Virus record (IMG/VR): IMGVR_UViG_3300046780_000140
Location: 1 to 57,991 of that record
Direction: 5' to 3' (one strand)
DNA from: a virus
Lineage: Duplodnaviria; Caudoviricetes
DNA length: 57,991 nucleotides
Part shown: positions 13,464 to 22,216 of the stretch, piece by piece
Position numbering within the stretch: the first letter of the stretch is position 1
How the letters are laid out: every line of letters begins with the position of its first letter
Position numbers and translations under genes: made by a program
Notes under the pieces: generated by a model
Told to the model about the DNA's origin: nothing
What the model saw: the letters and a program-made list of their open reading frames with translations, nothing else
Databases searched by the model: none

Positions 13464-14200
13464 TTCCCCACCTTCACTGCGATCTTAGTCGTCCCCAACG
13501 GTAAGGCATCGAGGGGAATTGTGACCGTCCTATCCCCCTCGACCAAAGGTGTCAGTCGGGTCTTGAGCGGTTGATCGTCAGAGTCCCATGCTTGCACTGT
13601 GACGGTGTGCGGCTCGGCCGCCGACGGCTCGGGGCCGTCCTCAGGACACCAGACTTTAGAACACCCGACACTACTGGCGACATCGAGCGGCGGATGATCC
13701 TTCGGACGCACACAACCGACAGGCCAGTACGGCGGGTACGTGTGCTTGCCGCAACGCTCTGGTTCCGGTCGAGGGATAGCGACGGTGGCACAGGAGCGAC
13801 TTATTCGACCGTGTTCCGATGGGATGGGATCGTGATAGGTGCCCGGCTCTATGGGCTTGCGGCAACGGTGGCAGTACCGCTCGACCTCGGGGTCTAGAGA
13901 GGGGAGATCTGGTCCTAGATCAGAGACGGCTCGCAGAAGCCGCGACACCACAGCAGCAACGGGTGGACGTGGCATCTCCCTGGCGCTCTCAATCAGCAGC
14001 GCATCGAAGTCTTCGGCTGACAGTTCGATCCGGTAGGTGGGGGCAGGAGTGTCGGCCTCCCACGCTGCAACAGCATGCTCGATCATCAGCGCTCGTTGCT
14101 GTTGGCTATACCCTTCGGACAATGACATCATCTCAAGGATCGTTTCCTTGCGACTCGGCTTCGGCGGTGGGTCCACTCGGACACATCGGATCTCGGTCAT
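13460..14200 (-). CDS. Hypothetical protein (Cys/His clusters)
   Basis: Translationally coupled ORF. Confidence 0.55.
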   Translation of the reverse strand: MTEIRCVRVDPPPKPSRKETILEMMSLSEGYSQQQRALMIEHAVAAWEADTPAPTYRIELSAEDFDALLIESAREMPRPPVAAVVSRLLRAVSDLGPDLPSLDPEVERYCHRCRKPIEPGTYHDPIPSEHGRISRSCATVAIPRPEPERCGKHTYPPYWPVGCVRPKDHPPLDVASSVGCSKVWCPEDGPEPSAAEPHTVTVQAWDSDDQPLKTRLTPLVEGDRTVTIPLDALPLGTTKIAVKVGK

Positions 14201-14550
14201 CGCATGAACCAGTGAACGATGGCACCCATGACGAGAGCGACCACGCCTTCATTCAGTTGATCAAAGAGCCTCGCTTTGATGAACGCGACGAGACTCTGAC
14301 CTTTCTCCGGCTCCTTGTGATACATAAACAGACCCACAAAGAGCGCCAGTCCGAAGGCGGTCCACACGGCAAGGCGGGGTGTGCCTGGCAGTGCGAGAGG
14401 AACGAACCAGTTCCAGATCGTTTTGACCACGAACCCTTGCCACAAGGCCAGTGGGAACGCGGTGACAACCATGAGCAGGAACGCCCTCAGTGTGTCGCCG
14501 GTCTTCTGATCGGACTGCGCCTGACGCAAACGGTCGGTTCTGGTCGCCAT
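14197..14550 (-). CDS. Membrane protein
   Basis: About three hydrophobic segments, IWNWFVP. Confidence 0.65.
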   Translation of the reverse strand: MATRTDRLRQAQSDQKTGDTLRAFLLMVVTAFPLALWQGFVVKTIWNWFVPLALPGTPRLAVWTAFGLALFVGLFMYHKEPEKGQSLVAFIKARLFDQLNEGVVALVMGAIVHWFMR

Positions 14551-14817
14551 CTACTTGCTCGACTGACGGAGTGCACCGATGATGACCGCCAGCAGAAATC
14601 CGACCGGGGCGCAGGTCCAGAAACCGGGCGTGTGACCGCTCACCCGGAAATGCACCGCCCCTGCGACCAGCATGAGAATCCACGTCCATGCGGCCGTGCC
14701 AAAGGCGAAGATCAGGATGAGCAGGGCTACGAGGCCGACAATCGCTGCGGCAGTCGTGCCAACGCTGCTCTTACCAGCAGTCATCGCACTGGTACGGTGG
14801 TAAATCGAACGGGCCAT
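14551..14817 (-). CDS. Membrane protein
   Basis: Two to three hydrophobic segments. Confidence 0.6.
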   Translation of the reverse strand: MARSIYHRTSAMTAGKSSVGTTAAAIVGLVALLILIFAFGTAAWTWILMLVAGAVHFRVSGHTPGFWTCAPVGFLLAVIIGALRQSSK

Positions 14818-14915
14818 TAGCCATCCCCTTCTATCCGTGGTGGAGCAGCCAGCCAGCGTCCACCGAAGGGGTTGAGGCGGAACGCCGACTGGCCGCTACT
14901 GGGTTACAACACCAG

Positions 14916-14945
14916 ATCCTACCACGACTGCTAGGGGGCTAGCAA
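14916..14945 (-). promoter_or_regulatory. Putative promoter
   Basis: TTGCTA-18 nt-TAGGAT with TGn extension; spacer carries the CCCCTAGC motif. Confidence 0.5.
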
Positions 14946-14954
14946 GCCTTCGAT

Positions 14955-15515
14955 TTACGGGGTTCCCGCCGGCAACTGGATGGATGGGACGGTGGCCACC
15001 ACGCACGCGATGAACGCTTGCATCGTCAGACCGTGCTTGTCGGCACAGAACCCGATAGCGATGTTCGTGACCTCGATCTGCTGAAGCGCGCCAGTGGTCC
15101 GGGAAATCCCGTCGTCGTAACAGGTGTGGACCTCAGGCGGTTTCGACCCGGCACCCGGAACATCAGGGGTGGCACACTCGTTGAACGCCGACTGGAACAT
15201 CGCCACCCGAGCCAGGATGGTGCGGTTATCAGCGGACTGCTGACGTTGCGATGCCTGACCGAGTAGCAACAGAACGACAGCGAGGATCAGGAACGGGAAT
15301 ACCACGCAGTCAGCGACTAGTCGCCATTTCACGATCCGTTTCGTGTCCCCCACCACGATCGCCACGTTCTCGACGGCGACACCGACGCCGGACATGCTCG
15401 TTGCCGCCTGTACCAAGGACGCTGCGATCCCACCGAACCCAGCATCGCCTGCCGCCTCGGCCCGGTCGTGCGCTTCCCCTTCAGTCGGGTCACTTCCCGT
15501 TGACTGATCCGCCAC
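14955..15515 (-). CDS. Membrane protein (lysis-cluster-like)
   Basis: Central TM segment and Cys-containing C-terminal domain. Confidence 0.55.
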   Translation of the reverse strand: MADQSTGSDPTEGEAHDRAEAAGDAGFGGIAASLVQAATSMSGVGVAVENVAIVVGDTKRIVKWRLVADCVVFPFLILAVVLLLLGQASQRQQSADNRTILARVAMFQSAFNECATPDVPGAGSKPPEVHTCYDDGISRTTGALQQIEVTNIAIGFCADKHGLTMQAFIACVVATVPSIQLPAGTP

Positions 15516-15690
15516 CCTGAATCCTCACCTTCCGTTCCAACTGCTCGGCTTTCACCTGCGCTGCTTGCAGGTCCGCCACCGACCTTCCGATGTCCACAAC
15601 CGCTTTCTGTACCGCCGCCCGAAGATCTTTCACCGCCGAATCCCTCGCCGCCTTATCCTCCGATGGGGTACGCCGCGACCATCGCGTCAT
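15490..15690 (-). CDS. Small coiled-coil protein
   Basis: MTRWSRRTPSEDK...; start overlaps stop of holin-like gene. Confidence 0.5.
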   Translation of the reverse strand: MTRWSRRTPSEDKAARDSAVKDLRAAVQKAVVDIGRSVADLQAAQVKAEQLERKVRIQGGGSVNGK

Positions 15691-16007
15691 CAGGACCGTC
15701 CCTTCGACCGGTCGTGGATCACGGCCAGGTCCGCAAGCGCCGACTGCATGGTGTCCGCCATCTTCGTACCCGCCGCCGCCATTTGCGAACCGGCCGCCGC
15801 CTGCGCCGACATCGCCACCGCCACCGACGACAGGAGAGGCATCACCTCTTTCAGCAAGGCTTCCGTCTGATCCTTCGAGTCCTTGCGGAGCGAGTCGATC
15901 GTGGACATCAACCATTTCAGGACCCCACCGATCACCCCCGCCAACCCCACCACCACCGCGCCGATCGCGTACGGGGAGTTCGTCACATCGGCTAGGAGCC
16001 CGTGCAC
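15690..16007 (-). CDS. Holin-like or lysis-associated membrane protein
   Basis: Single N-terminal TM followed by coiled coil. Confidence 0.5.
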   Translation of the reverse strand: MHGLLADVTNSPYAIGAVVVGLAGVIGGVLKWLMSTIDSLRKDSKDQTEALLKEVMPLLSSVAVAMSAQAAAGSQMAAAGTKMADTMQSALADLAVIHDRSKGRS

Positions 16008-16027
16008 CTGTCAGGCCCATCTCACGC

Positions 16028-16390
16028 TCACGGCGTGCCGCAGGCTTTGTCCACTGTCTTGACGCCACCAAGGAAGTACCCGATGTACTGCTCGAAGCAG
16101 CGCAGTTCCAAGGTATGTTGGGCCTCGGCGTCCGCTTTCGCCTGCGCCTCCATCACTTTCGTGGCGGACTCCGACCGTTGCGCCGACTGAGCGTAGGATC
16201 GGGTCGCGACCACGCATCCGACCCCGATGATCAGCGCAAGAACCAGGGCTGCTACCGCCAAGGCAAACGGCCATCGTCGGGTCTTGCTTGGTGGGGTGGG
16301 AACAGGTTGCATCCGGTCGGCTATCGTCGCCAACCCCGCGGTGACCTGATCCAGCACCGCCAAAAGGGTTACAAGGTCGGACGAGGTCAT
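16028..16390 (-). CDS. Membrane protein
   Basis: RRWPFALAVAALVLALIIGVGC TM segment. Confidence 0.55.
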   Translation of the reverse strand: MTSSDLVTLLAVLDQVTAGLATIADRMQPVPTPPSKTRRWPFALAVAALVLALIIGVGCVVATRSYAQSAQRSESATKVMEAQAKADAEAQHTLELRCFEQYIGYFLGGVKTVDKACGTP

Positions 16391-16789
16391 GGGTCACGCC
16401 CGCCATCGTAGGCTTCACGCCAGCACGAAAACGTGACCCGCCTAGAACGGCACCAACCGACCGACCACCTCGAGCGGTTCACCATCACGCATCGGGAACC
16501 TTCGGGAGCCCTGCCCAGAACTCTGTGGCCTCATCCCTGCCATCCAACCGACCTTTGGCGTAGCAGAACCCGCCGGCTATCCCGCTTCCGGTGGTGAACC
16601 CTGCGAGCCACCAGATGACATGGGGGACGGACCATCCGGTCACCGGACTCGCCCCGTGGTGGACGGCGTGGGTTCAGCCGCATCTGTTGACTTCACGCCT
16701 AACAGTTTCCCACAGCCGACCGGGGACTAGTCGCATTTCGCGATAGTCAAACCTCCCGAATCTGGCGGTACTTCCGTCCTAGTCGACCG

Positions 16790-17137
16790 TCAAAAACGTG
16801 TGGAGTTGAGTCCCAATTGGACGGCCTTACTCGTGTTCGTGTCCCACGTCCCAGTCACGGCGCAGGCGAACCCAATGCTAGCGAGGTAGTGCTGCAACTT
16901 GGTGGCGTTCGTGTTCGCCCGACCGGGCCACAACCAGTTGGCGCTGTCCGTGTAGTGCGGCGCCCCGATCTCCACCTCTGTGTTCGTGGAAGTGAGATGT
17001 CCGTAGCTCCCATCTTGGACGAGGGTGGGAGTGATGCCTCTGTGATTCAGGAGCCATTGCAGGGCCTTAGTGCTGAGGACTCCGAATGAGCCATCAACCG
17101 TCAGCGGACAAAAAGGATTTCCATCAGAACCGACCAT
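16790..17137 (-). CDS. Stand-alone peptidoglycan-binding domain protein
   Basis: LTVDGSFGVLSTKALQWLLN, LVQDGSYG, VTGTWDTNTSKAVQ (PG_binding_1-like repeats); TATTAT 6 nt upstream suggests leaderless start. Confidence 0.7.
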   Translation of the reverse strand: MVGSDGNPFCPLTVDGSFGVLSTKALQWLLNHRGITPTLVQDGSYGHLTSTNTEVEIGAPHYTDSANWLWPGRANTNATKLQHYLASIGFACAVTGTWDTNTSKAVQLGLNSTRF

Positions 17138-17151
17138 ATCATCATAATATT

Positions 17152-17188
17152 ACTTAGAGTGGCATCCGTTGTGGATGCCACTCTAAGT
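17152..17188 (-). terminator. Perfect 16-bp hairpin closing the pentamer array
   Basis: ACTTAGAGTGGCATCC-gttgt-GGATGCCACTCTAAGT, followed on the minus strand by an AT-rich tail. Confidence 0.8.
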
Positions 17189-17363
17189 CTCCCTACCTTG
17201 CCTTGCCACACCGGACCACACCGAACCGGGCCAAAGCCCACCTATTCACACCCCACCTTGGCGTACCGTGCCGAACCGGACCATGCCATACCAACACCGT
17301 GCCGCTCCACACCTCACCAAACCTTGGCACGCCACACCAAACCTAACCTCTCCGAACCACACC
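17188..17363 (-). ncRNA. GGY-NN pentamer array (putative guide RNA, VIPR vrRNA-like)
   Basis: 35 phased 5-nt units (28 GGY, 3 GGA, 4 other G-initial) with variable dinucleotides; one 1-nt phase shift at 17293; starts 14 nt after the stop of the RAMP-like gene. Confidence 0.85.
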
Positions 17364-17377
17364 GCAAGAACCACACT

Positions 17378-18106
17378 TTAGACTTCCTCGAACTTCACGC
17401 AATGAAACCGCCCATAGGTCGGTCGGAAGTCGGCCAGTCCCACGAACTTGCCCGCTTGATTTACCACGTCCAGCAGCACCGGAGGCGGGATGTACTCGGG
17501 CGAGTTGATGAGCAGGTCGAACTCAGCACGCCACCCCGCCAAGAACGCTGGGCGGGTACGGGTGATCCCGGCCCGCTGGACGGTGACATGCCGCTGATCC
17601 AGATAGTCCCAGTCGGCCTTTCCGAGACTGGCGACCTCCGTGAGCGGGATGATCGCAGCCTTGAACAGATCAATGGCCGACTTGCGCGGCGACCTCGGAT
17701 CCTGCCTATACCGACCAGCGTTCACGATCGCCATCCGCAGGTACTCGCCAGGGATGCCGATGGTCCCGTCGTCGCAGCGATAAACGTAGGACTCCACGTT
17801 GTCGGATTTCTTGGCGGCGCTTCCCTTTGCAGCGGCGGCCTTCTCGGCAACCGCCTCGACGGACCAGCGGTGGAACAGGATCGCCGCGGTGCCCTCCAAT
17901 GTCACCCGAGCGATGTAGGGGGCGGTCGGGTCGATGTCCCACTCGGCGTCGTTCGTCGGCGCGTCACCACCGATGGCTGTCGCAGTGCCGTTTGGATGTG
18001 CCCGCTCAAAGGCTGCCTGGATATCAGCGGGGATACGTCCTCGGCTGGAGACTTCGTGTCCGTTGGCGTTCGCCCATGCCCGGACATCTTGTGTACCCTT
18101 AGCCAT
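17378..18106 (-). CDS. Lsr2-like DNA-binding domain fused to RAMP/Cas7-like domain (Vipr-like)
   Basis: N-term VRAWANANGHEVSSRGRIPADIQAAF (Lsr2 C-terminal domain); C-term VTLEGTAAILFH, GTIGIPGEYLRMAI, RTRPAF..WRAEF, Gly-rich AGKFVGLADFRPTYGRF; GAAGGA RBS before ATG 18106. Confidence 0.75.
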   Translation of the reverse strand: MAKGTQDVRAWANANGHEVSSRGRIPADIQAAFERAHPNGTATAIGGDAPTNDAEWDIDPTAPYIARVTLEGTAAILFHRWSVEAVAEKAAAAKGSAAKKSDNVESYVYRCDDGTIGIPGEYLRMAIVNAGRYRQDPRSPRKSAIDLFKAAIIPLTEVASLGKADWDYLDQRHVTVQRAGITRTRPAFLAGWRAEFDLLINSPEYIPPPVLLDVVNQAGKFVGLADFRPTYGRFHCVKFEEV

Positions 18107-18172
18107 ATCAGCACGTCCTTCCGTGTTGGTCACGCCCTCGGCAGACCCAATCTGCGCGAGGGCATCATCTTA
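18107..18172 (-). promoter_or_regulatory. -10 box plus structured leader
   Basis: TAAGAT (18172-18167), hairpin 18134-18163, then CACG-GAAGGA-CGTG hairpin enclosing the SD. Confidence 0.6.
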
Positions 18173-18231
18173 CCTCATAATCAGTCCGTCCGAGGCAGAT
18201 CAGTGTGAGGCCGCCCGCGAACCTGGATGCC

Positions 18232-18406
18232 GGATGGTTCTCGGTTCGGATCAGGTCCGAGGTCAGGTGTCTTGTCACCGGGAGAACGCCGAGCGGTGAT
18301 AGCCCCTGGACTGCGGGCCGGCGCAACCTGCGCCTCGGAGAGCAACCGTTCTCGGGGTAGATGGCCCCGACAAACCTTCGGACCTGATCGAAACTGAGAA
18401 TCATCC
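18232..18406 (+). ncRNA. Putative long structured RNA
   Basis: About 30-bp imperfect closing stem with nested stems; G-U pairs favour the plus strand. Confidence 0.45.
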
Positions 18407-18451
18407 TACTTTGCTTCGTCGGATAGTTGCACGTCCGACGCTCCCGCAGGA

Positions 18452-18859
18452 TCAGATGTTGGCGCGGTGTCCAGCCAACAGGAGCGCCGCCTTCGGTGCC
18501 AGTTCAATGACGACATCACCGTGGCAGGGATCATCAAGGCCACACCAGCAACCCACGTCATGCCCGTCAGCCGCTGCCATCATTTCCACATCCCGAAGCC
18601 AATGCGATAGTTCACCCAGATCTTCGGGGCGGGACAGGCGGTATTTCCATTCCCATCGGTACATTTCGACGGCCATCGGTGCCGTCAGGGTGAGGCCCGG
18701 AATGTCATACCTAAGGCCGTCCACTTGGATGCCTGACACTTGGACCAGCGACCCGACCTTGAACATATTGCCGAGAGGTGACGGACGGGACACGACAATG
18801 CACCCTTCCGGTTTCCGCCATCCGGCCGTCCGCCGCAACTGAATCCGTCTCGGGGTCAC
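18452..18859 (-). CDS. DUF4326 family protein
   Basis: PRRIQLRRTAGWRKP..VVSRPSPLGNMF, GHDVGCWC...CHGDV. Confidence 0.85.
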   Translation of the reverse strand: MTPRRIQLRRTAGWRKPEGCIVVSRPSPLGNMFKVGSLVQVSGIQVDGLRYDIPGLTLTAPMAVEMYRWEWKYRLSRPEDLGELSHWLRDVEMMAAADGHDVGCWCGLDDPCHGDVVIELAPKAALLLAGHRANI

Positions 18860-19428
18860 AACCCGTACCCTAGCCTTTCCCTGCGATCTTCTCTCCACAT
18901 GGCACGCTCCCGCCGATGATCGTTCGCCTCCATCTCATCGGCCAAACCGAGGCCGTCAACAGGTTTCGGGACACGGGCCCGTGTCACCTTCGGGGAGATG
19001 TCACGGATCGCCCCCACATCCTTGCGGGCCGGTTTCACGACGACGGGAATCGGTGGCGTGTGACCGTGCTTCCCTGCCTGCTCGACAGACGCATGGAACG
19101 GGGCAGGACGTGGCTTCGCGTTCGGGTTCAACGCTATCAACCGCGCCCGCTGCCATGACTTCCAGCATGTCGGACACAACGCTAGGGCCGACAGCAACGC
19201 CTCGTTGCGCCGTTCCGCGCCCCAACACCAGACACCTTTCGGTAGCGGGTGACCCGGTTGCCCTACCGCACCGATGGATGGGAGTCCACAGATGCATGGG
19301 TGCGCCGTGAACCATTCCTTGCGGTTGCGGGCGACGTTCGATTTCACCCGACCAGCGCTCCCGCTCGGATCAGTTTCGCCTGACGGTCGTAGAGCACGAC
19401 GGTTCCCGCTGCGGAGACATTCAAACAA
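18856..19428 (-). CDS. Hypothetical protein (true start probably GTG near 19347)
   Basis: WF..HPCICG...LCPTC motifs; coupled to neighbours. Confidence 0.5.
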   Translation of the reverse strand: MFECLRSGNRRALRPSGETDPSGSAGRVKSNVARNRKEWFTAHPCICGLPSIGAVGQPGHPLPKGVWCWGAERRNEALLSALALCPTCWKSWQRARLIALNPNAKPRPAPFHASVEQAGKHGHTPPIPVVVKPARKDVGAIRDISPKVTRARVPKPVDGLGLADEMEANDHRRERAMWREDRRERLGYGL

Positions 19429-19826
19429 TAGGCAGACTCAAACGAGATGACGGACTGGCACAATGCCTGCGCCCCAGCGGAGAGTGAGCCGTCCTCCGGG
19501 CCAAGCAGGTAGATAGCCCGAGGCGGGTGCGTGAACATTTCCAGTGGCTCGGCACCATCGGCCAGTTCTACTCCGACGAGTGGAACGTCCATCGGCCGGT
19601 GCTCGTTGAAATCGGTCACGTCCGTGTAGGTGAACATCGGTATCTGCTGCCAGGACTTCACGGTGTCCGACGCCTGCCGGGAATATCGGGGACCGATGAC
19701 GAAGATGAAGTCGGCGCCGAGACAGACAGCGGAACGCCAGAGGGTGCCGATATTGGCGGGCGTCTTGGAACGTTCGATCCCGATGGCACAGAACCCTCGG
19801 GCCTTGACTTGCGTTCGTCGGCTCAC
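19344..19826 (-). CDS. SPOUT RNA methyltransferase (SpoU/TrmH family)
   Basis: KTPANIGTLWRSA, YLLGPEDGSL, CLNVSAAGTVVLYDR. Confidence 0.9.
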   Translation of the reverse strand: MSRRTQVKARGFCAIGIERSKTPANIGTLWRSAVCLGADFIFVIGPRYSRQASDTVKSWQQIPMFTYTDVTDFNEHRPMDVPLVGVELADGAEPLEMFTHPPRAIYLLGPEDGSLSAGAQALCQSVISFESAYCLNVSAAGTVVLYDRQAKLIRAGALVG

Positions 19827-20207
19827 AGAAGACGCTCGGATTCGGCTTGAGCCGCCGCGGACTCGGCACGCTTGACCGCCTTCTCAAGCGCCGCGGACAT
19901 GGTGGGAGCGCCCGCCCCAAGCGCGTCGGCCCGTTGGTATTTGCGCCAGAAGGAAACGCCGCACCACGTAGCCGTTACCTCCATTTCGACGCAGTGATAG
20001 CCGAGAGCATAGAGCCTGACGAGGCATTCCTCGACGCTCACCCGATGACCTCACGCCCGCACTCGACCACGCGCCGCTGGCTCGCATCGTATGATTCCCA
20101 TTTGATCGCCAACCGTTCCAGCGCTTCGGGCGATAGCACCGCCTCGGGTGCGTCCGCAGCGTCACGCCAGCGGAAAGCGTCTGGCAAGGCCATGCCAGGA
20201 AGGTCGC

Positions 20208-20660
20208 TCACCGGTTGATCTTGCTGTCGTAATGCTGGCCGGGATTCAGCGCATACACCCACGGCTTGACGTTCACCCGATGCGTCTTGCCTTTGTTGTC
20301 CATGACGGACAGGAACCAGGCGTCGTCGGCGTGCAAGGTTTGTGGACCGTAGATCGGGATCAGGTTCGTTATCGGAACGCAGGATGTGAAGGTGCCCATC
20401 GTGGAGCATGACTCGGTGATCTGCGGGTAGTAGGCGATGATCCCAACCGTTTCGTAGTCGTGTGCGGGCACGAACTGTTTGCTTGTCACCGTCCCGCTCC
20501 CTTGCCACGGGTGCGAGCACGCGGTCAATAGAAGGACCCCGAGCAGGAGAACGACACCGCGCCAATATCTGATCCTGCGGGAGCTGAGCGATATTTCCGC
20601 GAGTCGAAGCAAGGGAAAGGTGTCGTCTTTCACCGATTTTCCCCCATCCCCGGTGTCCAC
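20208..20660 (-). CDS. Putative lipoprotein
   Basis: Lipobox LLLTAC after hydrophobic stretch; GTVTSKQFVPAH. Confidence 0.65.
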   Translation of the reverse strand: MDTGDGGKSVKDDTFPLLRLAEISLSSRRIRYWRGVVLLLGVLLLTACSHPWQGSGTVTSKQFVPAHDYETVGIIAYYPQITESCSTMGTFTSCVPITNLIPIYGPQTLHADDAWFLSVMDNKGKTHRVNVKPWVYALNPGQHYDSKINR

Positions 20661-21164
20661 GGGTCCGCTGGCTCAGGGATCAGACCAACCTTCTCCGCCA
20701 CCCACAGAACGCCGGCAACCGCTGCCGCGAATGGGAGCAGGAAGAACGCGGCGACGGTCGGTCTGAACGTGGCGATACCCAAGTGGTCGCGGTCAGGCAT
20801 CGGAATCTCCGAGCGCTTGGCGGATGGCTCGTTCCGTCGGACACGGCCACGTCAGTTGGTCGTGGGCACAGGTTCCGGGCCAAGGCGGGCGCTTGATCTG
20901 ATAGTGGATTCTTCGCACGGCATCCATAGCCGCCGCACACGCCGTCAGATAGAAGTCCACGCCATTCTCAGCCATTCCCGGCCCCCTCTTTGATCGCCTG
21001 TTGGCGTCGTGCTATCTCGGTGCGGAGGTCCGCAAGGATTCGGTCCCCGTCCTCATCATCCGGCCACGGTTGGAACTCGTCGGCGCATGCGATCAGGTCA
21101 GCCAACGATGAGTTCACCCAATACGACGGGCCTTCGTGTCGGCGCTCCAGGTCGGCGGTGTCGG

Positions 21165-21725
21165 TCATCGGATGCCACCCTTCAGGCGTTCCAACCGCTT
21201 GCGGTCCGCGCTGATCCGACCACCGAGGTTCGACAGGTGGTACGGCGGGAATCTGCCGTCCGGGCGCAGGTGTCCGACTTGAGCTCCAACCACCAGATCG
21301 TGACGCTGGCTGTCGTCCAACACGCTCGGGTCCGGTGCACCTTTCCGGCATGAGGCGTTGTACGCCTTCAGGCGGTCCCGTGCCGCGTCCAATAGGGCGA
21401 TGCGGGCCTCCAGCGCTTCGATGGCGTCAGGGTCGTCGCTGAAGATCGAGGCGTCGGTGGCGGCTTCAATGTTCCGGGCCTTCGACGCCATCGACCGGGC
21501 TTTCGCACCGTTCTCGTATGCCCGGTCCTGTGCGCCACGGATCCGGTTGCGGTAGCCGCGGTCGGCGCCGTAGGAGTAGTGGTCCGGCATCATCGGCTGG
21601 CCGAACGGGATCATGGCAGCCATGTCGTGCGCCTTCTTGTCGAGCGCCTCGGCTTTCACTTCCCGTTTCTCGGACCATTCCCGCAGACGGGCGGCGCGGG
21701 CCTCGCGATGTTCTCGGGTGGTCAT
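21165..21725 (-). CDS. DUF3560 family protein
   Basis: IPFGQPMMPDHYS..DRGYRNRI, IFSDDPDAIEALEARI, YHLSNLGGRI. Confidence 0.88.
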   Translation of the reverse strand: MTTREHREARAARLREWSEKREVKAEALDKKAHDMAAMIPFGQPMMPDHYSYGADRGYRNRIRGAQDRAYENGAKARSMASKARNIEAATDASIFSDDPDAIEALEARIALLDAARDRLKAYNASCRKGAPDPSVLDDSQRHDLVVGAQVGHLRPDGRFPPYHLSNLGGRISADRKRLERLKGGIR

Positions 21726-22216
21726 CGCTGGCCCACGTCCGTTAGATTTGGGCGGGCGAACGATCCCCAAGTTTCTACAGCGGCCACATCGTAGGCTCGT
21801 GCGGCTGATTCCTCCGTTATGAACACACCAAGATGTTGCTGCTTACCATTGATGACAATGTACGCAACCCACTTGTCTATCTTGGTCGCAAAGCAAACCC
21901 CCTTGTAGCGCGACGAGCATCCAGCACGCTTTCGTTTGTTCACTTGATTCTGTTGATGAGTTGCGATTCGCAGATTACTGCGCCGGTTATTTAGACCGTC
22001 GCTATCGCGATGATCGACCTCCAGCCCATTGGGAGCACCCATTATCAAGCGATGCATGTACAACGTAGGAGTTGCACCCTTGGCCGTGGCGTAGGAGATC
22101 GGATTCGCTGATGAGGCAGCGGCATACGAATGGACCACCCACTGGTATGCCGACACTATTCCTTCGTCCGCTTCATCGATTGCCACATCTGGTCCATTGA
22201 CAGATTCAATAACCAC
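21722..22216 (-). CDS. HNH-AP2 homing endonuclease
   Basis: YMHRLI, VDHRDSDGLNNRRSNLR, SSRYKGV, HLGVF..EESAARAYD. Confidence 0.92.
   Translation of the reverse strand: MVIESVNGPDVAIDEADEGIVSAYQWVVHSYAAASSANPISYATAKGATPTLYMHRLIMGAPNGLEVDHRDSDGLNNRRSNLRIATHQQNQVNKRKRAGCSSRYKGVCFATKIDKWVAYIVINGKQQHLGVFITEESAARAYDVAAVETWGSFARPNLTDVGQR

What the first reader, a model, noticed from the sequence alone, without database searches (positions are those of the whole stretch)
17995..18106. Lsr2-type DNA-binding domain fused to the RAMP-like effector
Seen: the first ~40 aa (VRAWANANGHEVSSRGRIPADIQAAFERAH) match the Lsr2 C-terminal domain with its RGR AT-hook-like motif, joined by a low-complexity linker. 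Known: Lsr2 is the actinobacterial xenogeneic silencer. Inference: a guide-templated filament would display many Lsr2 domains at the target, giving programmable silencing, counter-silencing or faster search on AT-rich DNA. I am not aware of this fusion being described.
Basis: partly seen in the sequence, partly recalled or inferred. Interest (0 to 1): 0.8.

Follow-up and report, generated by a model that had tools for sequence, protein, structure and literature searches.

The report
Lsr2 DNA-binding domain on phage Vipr
A soil phage carries a recently described RNA-guided gene-silencing system (VIPR) whose filament-forming protein has, unusually, picked up the DNA-gripping domain of the actinobacterial silencer Lsr2 at its front end.

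Summary
The minus-strand gene 17378-18106 (242 aa) starts with an Lsr2 DNA-binding domain: Pfam PF23359, 54.7 bits against a cut-off of 26.9, with the RGR motif aligned to M. tuberculosis Lsr2. There is no ATG, GTG or TTG between codon 1 and codon 68, which lies inside the conserved core, so the domain must be translated.

The "RAMP-like effector" is real but already known. It is a Vipr protein of a VIPR system, described in bioRxiv preprints of 2026.
- The family profile matches the solved SUSP1 Vipr at E 2.3e-17.
- The fold matches Csm3/Cas7.
- The residues that read the GGY motif are conserved.
- An array of 35 GGY/NN pentamers follows the gene.
- 78 of 80 related viral loci have such arrays beside the gene.

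The fusion is what is new. No Lsr2 domain turned up in any other homologue I examined, including a 95%-identical one. The main texts of the four VIPR papers do not mention it. Other Vipr N-termini carry RRGRP motifs or a helix-turn-helix.

My best reading, which is inference, is a built-in DNA tether that aids target search or repression. Verdict: a new variant of a known kind, seen once, function untested. Interest 0.45.

The parts
17378..18106 (-). vipr gene with the N-terminal Lsr2 domain, 242 aa plus stop
   Evidence: Translation. Start-codon analysis. The same 242-aa protein is on record from two contigs, JGI/IMG and Logan. The family profile matches the SUSP1 Vipr protein 36pp_D at E 2.3e-17.
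18116..18122 (-). Shine-Dalgarno-like GGAAGGA, 9 nt before the ATG at 18106
   Evidence: Read from the 20 bases printed upstream of the ATG and from the sequence itself.
17999..18094 (-). Lsr2-type DNA-binding domain (residues 5-36) with the RGR motif
   Evidence: Pfam PF23359, E 6.1e-15, 54.7 bits against a cut-off of 26.9. Six-frame match at 57.9 bits. Alignment to 2kng_A, 6qkp_A and 6qkq_A. Two helices, pLDDT 82-93.
17921..17998 (-). Flexible N-terminal tail native to this Vipr clade (residues 37-62), which serves as the linker
   Evidence: pLDDT 53-63. The TAIGG..PTND segment is shared with homologues that lack Lsr2.
17381..17920 (-). Vipr RAMP core (residues 63-242): RRM strands, small helical bundle, thumb (TRxRPA) and G-loop (GLADFRPTYGRF)
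   Evidence: pLDDT 95-99. Foldseek top hits are Csm3, type VII Cas7 and Cas7-11, E about 2e-6. VIA Z 11.6, 11.3 and 11.2 to Cmr and Csm3 chains. Alignment to SUSP1 Vipr pairs H79, R185, D226, F227 and R228 with H17, R138, D177, W178 and R179.
17189..17363 (-). vrRNA repeat array: 35 pentamers (14 units, a 1-nt phase slip at 17293, then 21 units) of GGY/NN type
   Evidence: GG recurs at a strict 5-nt period. G autocorrelation is 0.54 at lags 5, 10 and 15. 31 of 35 units start with GG and 28 of 35 with GGY. It is the only period-5 GG array in the window on either strand. 78 of 80 related viral loci have same-strand arrays beside the gene.
17152..17188 (-). Perfect 16-bp hairpin directly after the array: a terminator or a 3' tail of the last vrRNA
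   Evidence: Inverted repeat I14. RNA fold -30.8 kcal/mol, z -8.3. A comparable hairpin (z below -3) follows the array in only 7 of 54 related loci by a crude test, so its role is open.

Best explanation
Shown by homology and anatomy: the gene encodes a Vipr, the single RAMP-fold effector of a Viral Interference Programmable Repeat (VIPR) system, in a tailed phage of an actinobacterial type. The 35 GGY/NN pentamers directly after the stop codon are its guide (vrRNA) array.

Taken from the preprints on the E. coli phage SUSP1 system: one Vipr protomer binds each pentamer. It hides the GGY and presents the NN, so that a helical filament reads duplex DNA with a one-base skip and represses transcription.

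Specific to this phage, and shown: each protomer carries at its N-terminus, on a flexible tail of about 25 residues, the AT-hook-like DNA-binding domain of Lsr2, without Lsr2's oligomerisation domain. It is necessarily co-translated with the core.

Inferred: the domain is a built-in DNA tether, the in-cis counterpart of the DNA-binding Vap accessory proteins of other VIPR types. A filament of a dozen or more protomers would have high multivalent affinity for the AT-rich minor groove. In a high-G+C host this would concentrate the PAM-less complex on easily melted, horizontally acquired DNA such as rival prophages, and/or clamp the bound filament to flanking DNA and strengthen repression. In effect the RNA-templated filament replaces Lsr2's own oligomerisation domain.
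For: Vipr identity:
- The profile of 76 homologues matches PDB 36pp_D 'SUSP1 Vipr protein' at E 2.3e-17 over residues 5-190 of 202. The single sequence matches at E 1.9e-5.
- The residues the structure preprint names as reading GGY (H17, R138, D177, W178, R179; passage read) align with H79, R185, D226, F227 and R228. All five are invariant across 20 close homologues; across 76 diverse ones R185, D226 and R228 stay nearly invariant, while H79 and F227 are not listed as invariant or nearly invariant.
- The fold is RAMP: model pLDDT 92.4; Foldseek hits Csm3 and Cas7 at E about 2e-6; VIA Z 11.6-11.2.

Guide array:
- 35 units, 28 of them GGY, unique in the window.
- 78 of 80 related loci have the same kind of array.

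Fusion is real:
- The Lsr2 domain scores well above its cut-off.
- No internal start codon exists.
- The same protein is found in two assemblies, probably from one sample.

Support for a DNA-tether role:
- Of 186 homologues that could be placed in register, 16 have 60 or more residues before the conserved His. Three of these carry a KRRGRP or RRGRP motif (P0130, P0139, P0165). One has a helix-turn-helix-like domain (P0047; HTH_20, E 9e-5, below Pfam's cut-off). Several have lysine-rich tails.
- The discovery preprint says that the Vap proteins of types II, VI and VII are predicted DNA binders and that vap1 enhanced protection.
- No conserved accessory gene accompanies vipr in 69 non-redundant loci of this clade.

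Host: the terminase and capsid proteins match almost only actinobacteriophages.
Against: - The fusion was seen in one phage only. No Lsr2 domain was found in the top 120 of 6934 homologues, the 150 listed representatives, 80 viral loci, the metagenome loci or 59 genome loci. P0002 is 95% identical in the core and lacks the domain. A recent event need not be adaptive.
- The guide's NN composition is not shifted toward A+T relative to Lsr2-less relatives.
- No natural target was found, so nothing is known about the target's base composition.
- Where the N-terminus sits in the filament is not known for this clade. SUSP1 Vipr has no such tail.
- DNA binding, filament formation and repression were not tested for this protein.
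Confidence: 0.55

Rival explanations
1. Guide-directed counter-silencing. The filament brings many Lsr2 DNA-binding domains that lack the oligomerisation domain to a chosen locus. There they displace or cap host Lsr2 and de-repress the locus, for example forcing a rival prophage out of lysogeny or freeing the phage's own AT-rich genes.
For: The domain is the DNA-binding half only. No PF11774 oligomerisation domain was found, whereas its closest relatives have both halves. The discovery preprint shows that VIPR can induce a prophage when aimed at its repressor. That Lsr2 silences AT-rich foreign DNA in actinobacteria is my own recalled knowledge, supported here only by the abstract of PMC6584129 in a search listing.
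Against: In the preprints a bound Vipr filament is itself a transcription block on either strand, so net de-repression at the bound site is hard to picture. No target is known. Nothing here shows competition with host Lsr2.
Confidence: 0.12
2. Recent, nearly neutral domain capture. The Lsr2 module landed at the dispensable, variable N-terminus of Vipr, is tolerated, and contributes little.
For: There is a single occurrence among all homologues examined, and a 95%-identical relative lacks it. The N-terminus is the most variable part of the family: the median is 44 residues before the conserved His, with a range from under 10 to over 120. GC3 of codons 1-45 is 0.556, against a mean of 0.746 (sd 0.108) for the window's genes. 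This is compatible with foreign origin but not significant, since 8.1% of 529 windows are as low.
Against: The frame is intact, the RGR motif and both helices are preserved, and the Shine-Dalgarno sequence and start codon sit in front of the domain. Other clades have independently added DNA-binding motifs at the same end, which argues that such add-ons are useful.
Confidence: 0.2
3. Localisation device. The domain parks the protein or the ribonucleoprotein on the nucleoid or on the phage's own DNA, for retention or concentration near replicating DNA. It would play no part in target recognition.
For: Lsr2-type domains bind AT-rich DNA rather unspecifically (recalled knowledge). At 61% G+C the phage may be lower in G+C than many soil actinobacteria (recalled knowledge). 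The same domain appears at the end of unrelated phage and defence protein families: phrog_31427, phrog_6269 and a PADLOC methyltransferase profile.
Against: There is no direct evidence for it. With sequence data alone it cannot be told apart from the tether model.
Confidence: 0.08
4. Artefact: a chimeric assembly or a wrong start, so that the domain is not part of the protein.
For: The record is a metagenome-assembled contig, and only one sequencing run holds it.
Against: A second assembler's contig (18,856 bases, depth about 10) is identical over 17100-18500, with no joints and no differences, though probably from the same sample. There is no ATG, GTG or TTG between codon 1 and codon 68, and starting at codon 68 would remove the invariant P63 and Y64 and part of the first strand.
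Confidence: 0.03

Closest known systems
VIPR systems: Vipr protein plus vrRNA (bioRxiv 10.64898/2026.04.26.720920 and 10.64898/2026.04.26.720927; Results, Discussion and two Methods sections read)
   Same: It is phage-encoded with a minimal locus and one small RAMP-fold protein. GGY/NN pentamer arrays lie beside the gene on its strand. The GGY-reading residues are conserved, and the family profile is homologous to the solved SUSP1 Vipr (E 2.3e-17).
   Different: - About 45 extra N-terminal residues carry an Lsr2 DNA-binding domain.
- The clade has a native N-terminal tail that SUSP1 Vipr lacks.
- No accessory vap gene is conserved next to it.
- The array is one continuous run of 35 units, rather than separate vrRNAs of 9-16 repeats each followed by a pseudoknot tail.
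- The aromatic G-loop residue is F, where SUSP1 has W.
- Which of the seven published types it belongs to cannot be told without the supplements.
Lsr2, the actinobacterial xenogeneic silencer (solved DNA-binding domains 2kng, 6qkp, 6qkq)
   Same: The C-terminal DNA-binding domain, with two helices and the RGR minor-groove motif. It is 63-70% identical to domains of canonical Lsr2 proteins.
   Different: Only the DNA-binding half is present, and it sits at the N-terminus of another protein. The oligomerisation domain PF11774 is missing. An RNA-templated RAMP filament would supply oligomerisation instead.
CRISPR type III backbone subunits Csm3/Cmr4, type VII Cas7 and Cas7-11
   Same: The best structural matches: Foldseek E about 2e-6 with TM about 0.5, and VIA Z 10-11.6 over about 130-156 residues. 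They share the RRM core, thumb and glycine-rich loop.
   Different: No CRISPR array and no cas genes are nearby. The guide period is 5 nt rather than 6 nt. Sequence identity is 9-16%.
Vap accessory proteins of VIPR types II, VI and VII (predicted winged-helix or helix-turn-helix DNA binders; and the figure legends)
   Same: A DNA-binding module that works together with Vipr.
   Different: They are separate proteins acting in trans and have other folds. Here the module is fused in cis and binds the minor groove.

Membership tests
VIPR / Vipr protein | RAMP fold with RRM core, thumb and glycine-rich loop | tested here: met
   AlphaFold2 model, pLDDT 92.4. Foldseek hits Csm3 and Cas7 chains at E about 2e-6 and probability 1.00. 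VIA Z 11.6, 11.3 and 11.2. The G-loop GLADFRPTYGRF and the thumb TRxRPA are conserved.
VIPR / Vipr protein | Sequence homology to an experimentally characterised Vipr | tested here: met
   SUSP1 Vipr protein 36pp_D: phmmer E 1.9e-5; profile of 76 homologues E 2.3e-17 over chain residues 5-190.
VIPR / Vipr protein | Residues that recognise GGY (SUSP1 H17, R138, D177, W178, R179, as named in the structure preprint) | tested here: met
   They align with H79, R185, D226, F227 (aromatic, in place of W) and R228. All five are invariant in 20 close homologues; in 76 diverse ones R185, D226 and R228 are nearly invariant, and H79 and F227 are not listed as invariant or nearly invariant. The residue roles come from the passage read.
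VIPR / Vipr protein | YNNGG / GGYNN tandem repeats (four or more units) flanking the gene on its strand | tested here: met
   35 units at 17189-17363, of which 31 are GG and 28 GGY. It is the only such array in the window. 78 of 80 related viral loci have them; the two misses are L037 and L074.
VIPR / Vipr protein | Non-CRISPR, minimal, mostly viral context | tested here: met
   The record is a tailed-phage contig with terminase, portal, capsid, Gam and DnaB genes. No cas genes occur among the ten neighbours scanned. No CRISPR-like repeats occur in 14000-22000. There are no Rfam matches.
VIPR / Vipr protein | Accessory vap gene next to vipr | tested here: inconclusive
   No neighbour family is shared by more than 17 of 69 non-redundant loci, and the largest ones look like translations of the arrays. 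The preprint also reports stand-alone vipr genes.
VIPR / Vipr protein | vrRNA expressed, bound by the protein, and directing DNA binding by the one-base-skip rule | not testable with these tools
   No RNA run holds the stretch. Local searches by the skip rule found no target above shuffled controls: in the window the best was 14-15 of 20 against control maxima of 15-17; in about 1.05 Mb of fetched loci the best was 15-16 of 20 against control maxima of 15-17.
Lsr2 (xenogeneic silencer) | DNA-binding domain PF23359 above Pfam's cut-off | tested here: met
   54.7 bits against 26.9; 57.9 bits in the six-frame search.
Lsr2 (xenogeneic silencer) | RGR AT-hook-like motif between two helices | tested here: met
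   SSRGRIPAD aligns with STRGRIPAD of 2kng_A. Helices 2-14 and 27-36 in the model. That RGR is the DNA-contacting motif is recalled knowledge.
Lsr2 (xenogeneic silencer) | N-terminal dimerisation and oligomerisation domain PF11774 | tested here: not met
   There is no PF11774 match at E up to 1. The six closest Lsr2 relatives all carry PF11774 plus PF23359. This is therefore not an Lsr2 protein, only its DNA-binding module.
Lsr2 (xenogeneic silencer) | Preferential binding to AT-rich DNA | not testable with these tools
   This needs a binding assay.
CRISPR-Cas type III Csm3/Cmr4 (Cas7) | Encoded with cas10 and other cas genes and a CRISPR array | tested here: not met
   The neighbours are DUF4326, a SpoU methylase, a Gam-like protein and unknowns. 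There are no spaced repeats.

The most novel reading that the evidence does not exclude
The phage has built an RNA-programmed xenogeneic silencer. The vrRNA-templated Vipr filament takes over the role of Lsr2's oligomerisation domain, so a guide-chosen site nucleates an Lsr2-like array of a dozen or more minor-groove binders. This array coats or bridges the AT-rich DNA around the target and silences a whole region of a rival element, not just one promoter. More generally, the Vipr N-terminus would be a natural docking point for DNA-binding effector modules (Lsr2 domain, RRGRP motifs, helix-turn-helix), a natural precedent for the 'synthetic Vipr fusions' the preprint proposes.
Probability: 0.15. 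Interest if true: 0.75.

Novelty: new variant of a known kind. Interest (0 to 1): 0.45.

Why it matters
VIPR was described only in 2026 and is presented as a minimal, PAM-less platform for RNA-guided DNA binding. How it finds targets in duplex DNA is an open question, and so is what its accessory DNA binders do.

This is a natural Vipr that carries a well-understood minor-groove, AT-preferring domain on every protomer. It offers a ready-made experiment: full-length against domain-deleted against RGR mutant. It is also a natural precedent for engineered Vipr fusions.

The finding extends VIPR to a phage of actinobacterial type and links it to the Lsr2 silencing world.

Its weight is limited. 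The underlying system is known, the fusion was seen once, and no function was tested.

Tried and rejected
- **Downstream start.** Rejected. There is no ATG, GTG or TTG between codons 1 and 68.
- **Other Lsr2-Vipr fusions.** Several tblastn matches seemed to reach query residues 1-30 (L026, L031, L033, L038, L039, L049, L073, L074, L078; L092-L094, L086, L114). On reading them, they were open-frame read-through of upstream repeat arrays or unrelated sequence. Of the 72 metagenome loci I read 10 in full. The others either matched only from residue 34 or later, or were stand-alone Lsr2-like hits (L115-L154).
- **Word-based search with residues 1-46.** It gave 9 candidates and 6 hits, all canonical two-domain Lsr2 proteins. 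Its sensitivity is low.
- **Pfam on 19 N-terminally extended or multi-stretch homologues.** Only P0047 gave a hit, and it was below the cut-off.
- **Conserved accessory gene.** None found.
- **Targets by the one-base-skip rule.** None found in the window or in the fetched loci. A scan of the public collections was not run, because it needs a derived, gapped pattern that may not be typed into a tool.
- **AT-richness of the guide.** Not different from relatives.
- **Foreign codon usage in the Lsr2 part.** Not significant.
- **Conserved 3' hairpin after arrays.** Found in only 7 of 54 loci by a crude test.
- **Promoter scan of 16700-18950.** No sigma-70-like site.
- **Rfam.** No match in the window.
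- **RNA evidence.** No RNA holder is listed.
- **Independent DNA support.** Only one run holds the stretch, and it is probably the source sample.
- **PADLOC.** Only a weak match of the Lsr2 part to the end of a methyltransferase profile.
- **Tools and steps not available or not used.** The first genome-contig scan, with alignment A2, failed for lack of a conserved stretch and was repeated with A1. Complex prediction was not used, because self-assembly of Vipr is already known from solved structures.
Full report
**What is at the coordinates**

Window 17995-18106 lies on the minus strand, inside the ORF 17378-18106.

- Pfam's Lsr2 DNA-binding domain (PF23359) matches residues 5-36 with E 6.1e-15 and 54.7 bits, against a curated cut-off of 26.9.
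- PHROGs gives 'nucleoid associated Lsr2-like' for the same residues (phrog_1223, E 1.3e-10) and an unknown-function family, phrog_4652, for residues 67-235.
- A six-frame search of the whole record finds this one Lsr2 domain and no other.
- phmmer against solved structures aligns residues 7-36 with the Lsr2 DNA-binding domains 2kng_A, 6qkp_A and 6qkq_A (E about 2e-5). The RGR motif is in register.

**Is the domain translated?**

The in-frame stop upstream ends at 18170. The only ATG, GTG or TTG codons before codon 68 are GTG 18133 and ATG 18106, and the ATG is preceded by GGAAGGA at a 9-nt spacing. Codons 68 and 70 lie inside the first conserved strand, after the invariant P63 and Y64. Any functional core protein must therefore include the Lsr2 domain.

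The 242-aa protein is on record from two contigs, JGI/IMG and Logan. A Logan contig of 18,856 bases is identical over 17100-18500 with no joints. Only one sequencing run holds the stretch and it may be the source sample, so this excludes an assembler-specific chimera but is not independent support.

**Context**

The window is a whole IMG/VR virus record, estimated to be 83% complete. It encodes a large terminase, a portal, a major head protein, a DnaB-like helicase and a Mu Gam-like protein, nearly all on the minus strand.

The terminase matches 2042 phage records, almost all of them actinobacteriophages: Mycobacterium 1347, Gordonia 227, Streptomyces 207, Arthrobacter 97 and others. The best full-length matches are 32-34% identical. 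The capsid protein matches 86 records, mostly Gordonia, Mycobacterium and Rhodococcus phages. An actinobacterial host is likely, which fits an Lsr2 domain. The closest Lsr2 domains are 63-70% identical, and one comes from a Pseudonocardiales bin.

**What the core is**

The word-based search found 6934 homologues at E up to 1e-3. The 120 listed are 202-276 residues long, mostly about 205-220, carry no Pfam domain, and cover only 77-87% of the query. The alignment shows that they lack residues about 4-40 of the query.

An AlphaFold2 model built on 76 homologues has pLDDT 92.4.

- Foldseek against the PDB returns type III Csm3, type VII Cas7 and Cas7-11 chains (E about 2e-6, probability 1.00, TM about 0.45-0.56).
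- The Foldseek-independent aligner gives Z 11.6, 11.3 and 11.2 for Cmr and Csm3 chains, with Cas7, Cas5 and Cas6 proteins filling most of the list.

So 'RAMP-like' is right.

**The repeat array**

Directly after the stop codon, on the gene's strand, GG recurs every 5 nt for about 175 nt. G autocorrelation is 0.54 at lags 5, 10 and 15. Parsed, there are 14 units, a 1-nt slip, then 21 units. Of the 35 units, 31 start with GG and 28 with GGY.

It is the only such array in the window. On the minus strand, only 4 sampled 60-nt windows score 8 or more in-phase GG, and all four start between 17251 and 17371. None does on the plus strand. A perfect 16-bp hairpin follows (-30.8 kcal/mol, z -8.3).

In 78 of 80 related viral loci, same-strand period-5 GG arrays lie directly upstream and/or downstream of the homologous gene. 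The two misses are L037 and L074, and minus-strand arrays occur in only 4 loci. The 80 loci reduce to 68 non-redundant ones by protein (69 entries with the window's own locus). Many long 'N-terminal extensions' in database proteins are simply read-through of these arrays.

**It is a known system**

[quoted passage not shown] I read the Results, Discussion and two Methods sections of 10.64898/2026.04.26.720920 and the first part of the Results of 10.64898/2026.04.26.720927. According to them:

- Vipr is a small, phage-encoded RAMP protein.
- vrRNAs consist of 9-16 YNNGG repeats.
- One protomer binds each repeat in a helical filament.
- The NN bases pair with duplex DNA while every third base is skipped.
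- The result is transcriptional repression of competing phages and satellites.
- Accessory Vap proteins are DNA binders or nucleases.

The PDB copy holds 'SUSP1 Vipr protein' (36pp_D). My query matches it at E 1.9e-5, and the family profile matches it at E 2.3e-17 over residues 5-190 of 202.

The residues named in the structure preprint as reading GGY are H17, R138, D177, W178 and R179. They align with H79, R185, D226, F227 and R228. All five are invariant in the alignment of 20 close homologues. In the alignment of 76 diverse homologues, R185, D226 and R228 remain nearly invariant, while H79 and F227 are no longer listed as invariant or nearly invariant. Membership in the Vipr family is thus met on fold, sequence, most of the key residues, repeat array and context. 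Expression and binding cannot be tested here.

**How unusual is the fusion?**

I found no Lsr2 domain in any other homologue examined:

- the 120 listed homologues, of which 19 were aligned with the query, including P0002, which is 95% identical in the core and shares the query's 90% cluster;
- the 150 listed representatives of 1212 hits, whose best matched stretch never starts before query residue 32;
- the 80 viral loci;
- the 72 metagenome loci, where core hits lack it and hits to residues 5-47 are stand-alone Lsr2-like genes (10 loci read in full);
- the 59 genome loci, where the best tblastn E for the Lsr2 part is 2.3.

A search restricted to residues 1-46 returned six canonical two-domain Lsr2 proteins.

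The four VIPR papers in the library do not contain 'Lsr2', 'fused', 'N-terminal' or 'AT-hook' in their main texts. 'Fusion' occurs once, for synthetic fusions proposed in a Discussion. For the fourth paper I searched only for 'Lsr2' and 'Vipr'. A search for Lsr2 + RAMP + fusion found 15 papers; the titles of the 10 listed were unrelated. The supplements, where the catalogue of 670 Vipr proteins lies, were closed.

**A wider pattern**

Of 186 homologues that could be placed in register, the median length before the conserved His is 44 residues, and 16 have 60 or more. About four of these look like array read-through. Among the rest:

- three carry KRRGRP or RRGRP (P0130, P0139, P0165), which I recognise from memory as the AT-hook core;
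- one has a helix-turn-helix-like domain (P0047; HTH_20, E 9e-5, below the cut-off);
- several are lysine-rich (P0203, P0250).

No conserved accessory gene accompanies vipr in 69 non-redundant loci of this clade. The Vipr N-terminus therefore seems to be a recurrent place for DNA-binding add-ons, and the Lsr2 domain is the clearest case.

**Mechanism**

Established by homology: a vrRNA-templated filament that reads DNA through the NN code.

Inferred: the Lsr2 domain sits on a flexible native tail (residues 37-62, pLDDT 53-63) and gives each protomer affinity for the AT-rich minor groove. The filament as a whole would have high avidity. This could bias a PAM-less search toward AT-rich, easily opened, horizontally acquired DNA, or clamp the bound complex and reinforce repression. 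That is the role Vap DNA binders may play in trans.

Tests that could have supported an AT-rich target did not:

- NN G+C is 0.484 against 0.613 for the window. This is the same offset as in 67 Lsr2-less loci (-0.118, sd 0.068).
- No target was found in the window or in about 1.05 Mb of fetched loci. The best scores, 14-16 of 20, equal the shuffled controls.

Rival readings are counter-silencing of host Lsr2, a nearly neutral recent capture (GC3 0.556 against 0.746, sd 0.108, not significant at 8.1%), a localisation device, and an artefact.

**Verdict**

The RAMP system is already known (VIPR). The Lsr2-Vipr fusion is a new variant, seen once, of plausible but untested function.

Noticed in passing
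window 18440-18471 and 20553-20584: A 32-nt inverted repeat, 97% complementary, brackets about 2.1 kb that holds the DUF4326 gene, a 190-aa ORF and a SpoU-type methylase gene. The Logan contig shows the same repeat copies. It could be a mobile or invertible cassette just upstream of vipr.
   Followed up: no
window 18134-18451 (minus strand), arms 18232-18260 and 18378-18406: The 318-nt intergenic region upstream of vipr has no GG period-5 array, but it folds into one long hairpin built on 29-nt arms (86% complementary). MFE is -141.2 kcal/mol, z -3.3. There is no Rfam match and no sigma-70-like promoter.
   Followed up: partly
protein P0125 (336 aa): A homologue with two Vipr cores in tandem in one polypeptide, each with its own G-loop.
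   Followed up: no
proteins P0130, P0139, P0165, P0047, P0203, P0250: Vipr homologues with genuine N-terminal extensions: KRRGRP or RRGRP motifs, a helix-turn-helix-like domain, or lysine-rich tails. Their genomic context could not be fetched.
   Followed up: partly
window 17293 and the units at about 17324-17328, 17258-17262, 17243-17247 and 17233-17237: The array has a single 1-nt phase slip after unit 14 and four degenerate units (GCCAA twice, GAATA, GCTTT). A GxCAAGG motif recurs at spacings of 55 and 66 nt. These may mark boundaries of individual vrRNAs; the preprint mentions staggered arrays with 1-nt overlaps.
   Followed up: partly
loci L092 and L094 (contig JADMIO011184587.1, 85,521 bases): The same 6.7-kb vipr locus occurs twice, identically, about 50 kb apart in one contig. 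This suggests a concatemer or a circular genome assembled twice over.
   Followed up: no
loci L156-L214: Close relatives of this Vipr clade (47-69% identity) sit in genomes labelled Phycisphaerae and other Planctomycetota, Acidimicrobiia, Mycobacterium, Nocardioides, Proteobacteria, Bacillota, a cyanobacterium and a Bathyarchaeia bin. The clade crosses phyla, although the window's structural genes look actinophage-like.
   Followed up: no
window residues 5-54 of the Vipr protein; PADLOC PDLC03328: The Lsr2-like segment weakly matches the last 50 positions of a type II methyltransferase defence profile (E 4.3e-4), and also phrog_31427 and phrog_6269. The domain seems to travel as a terminal module on unrelated proteins.
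   Followed up: no
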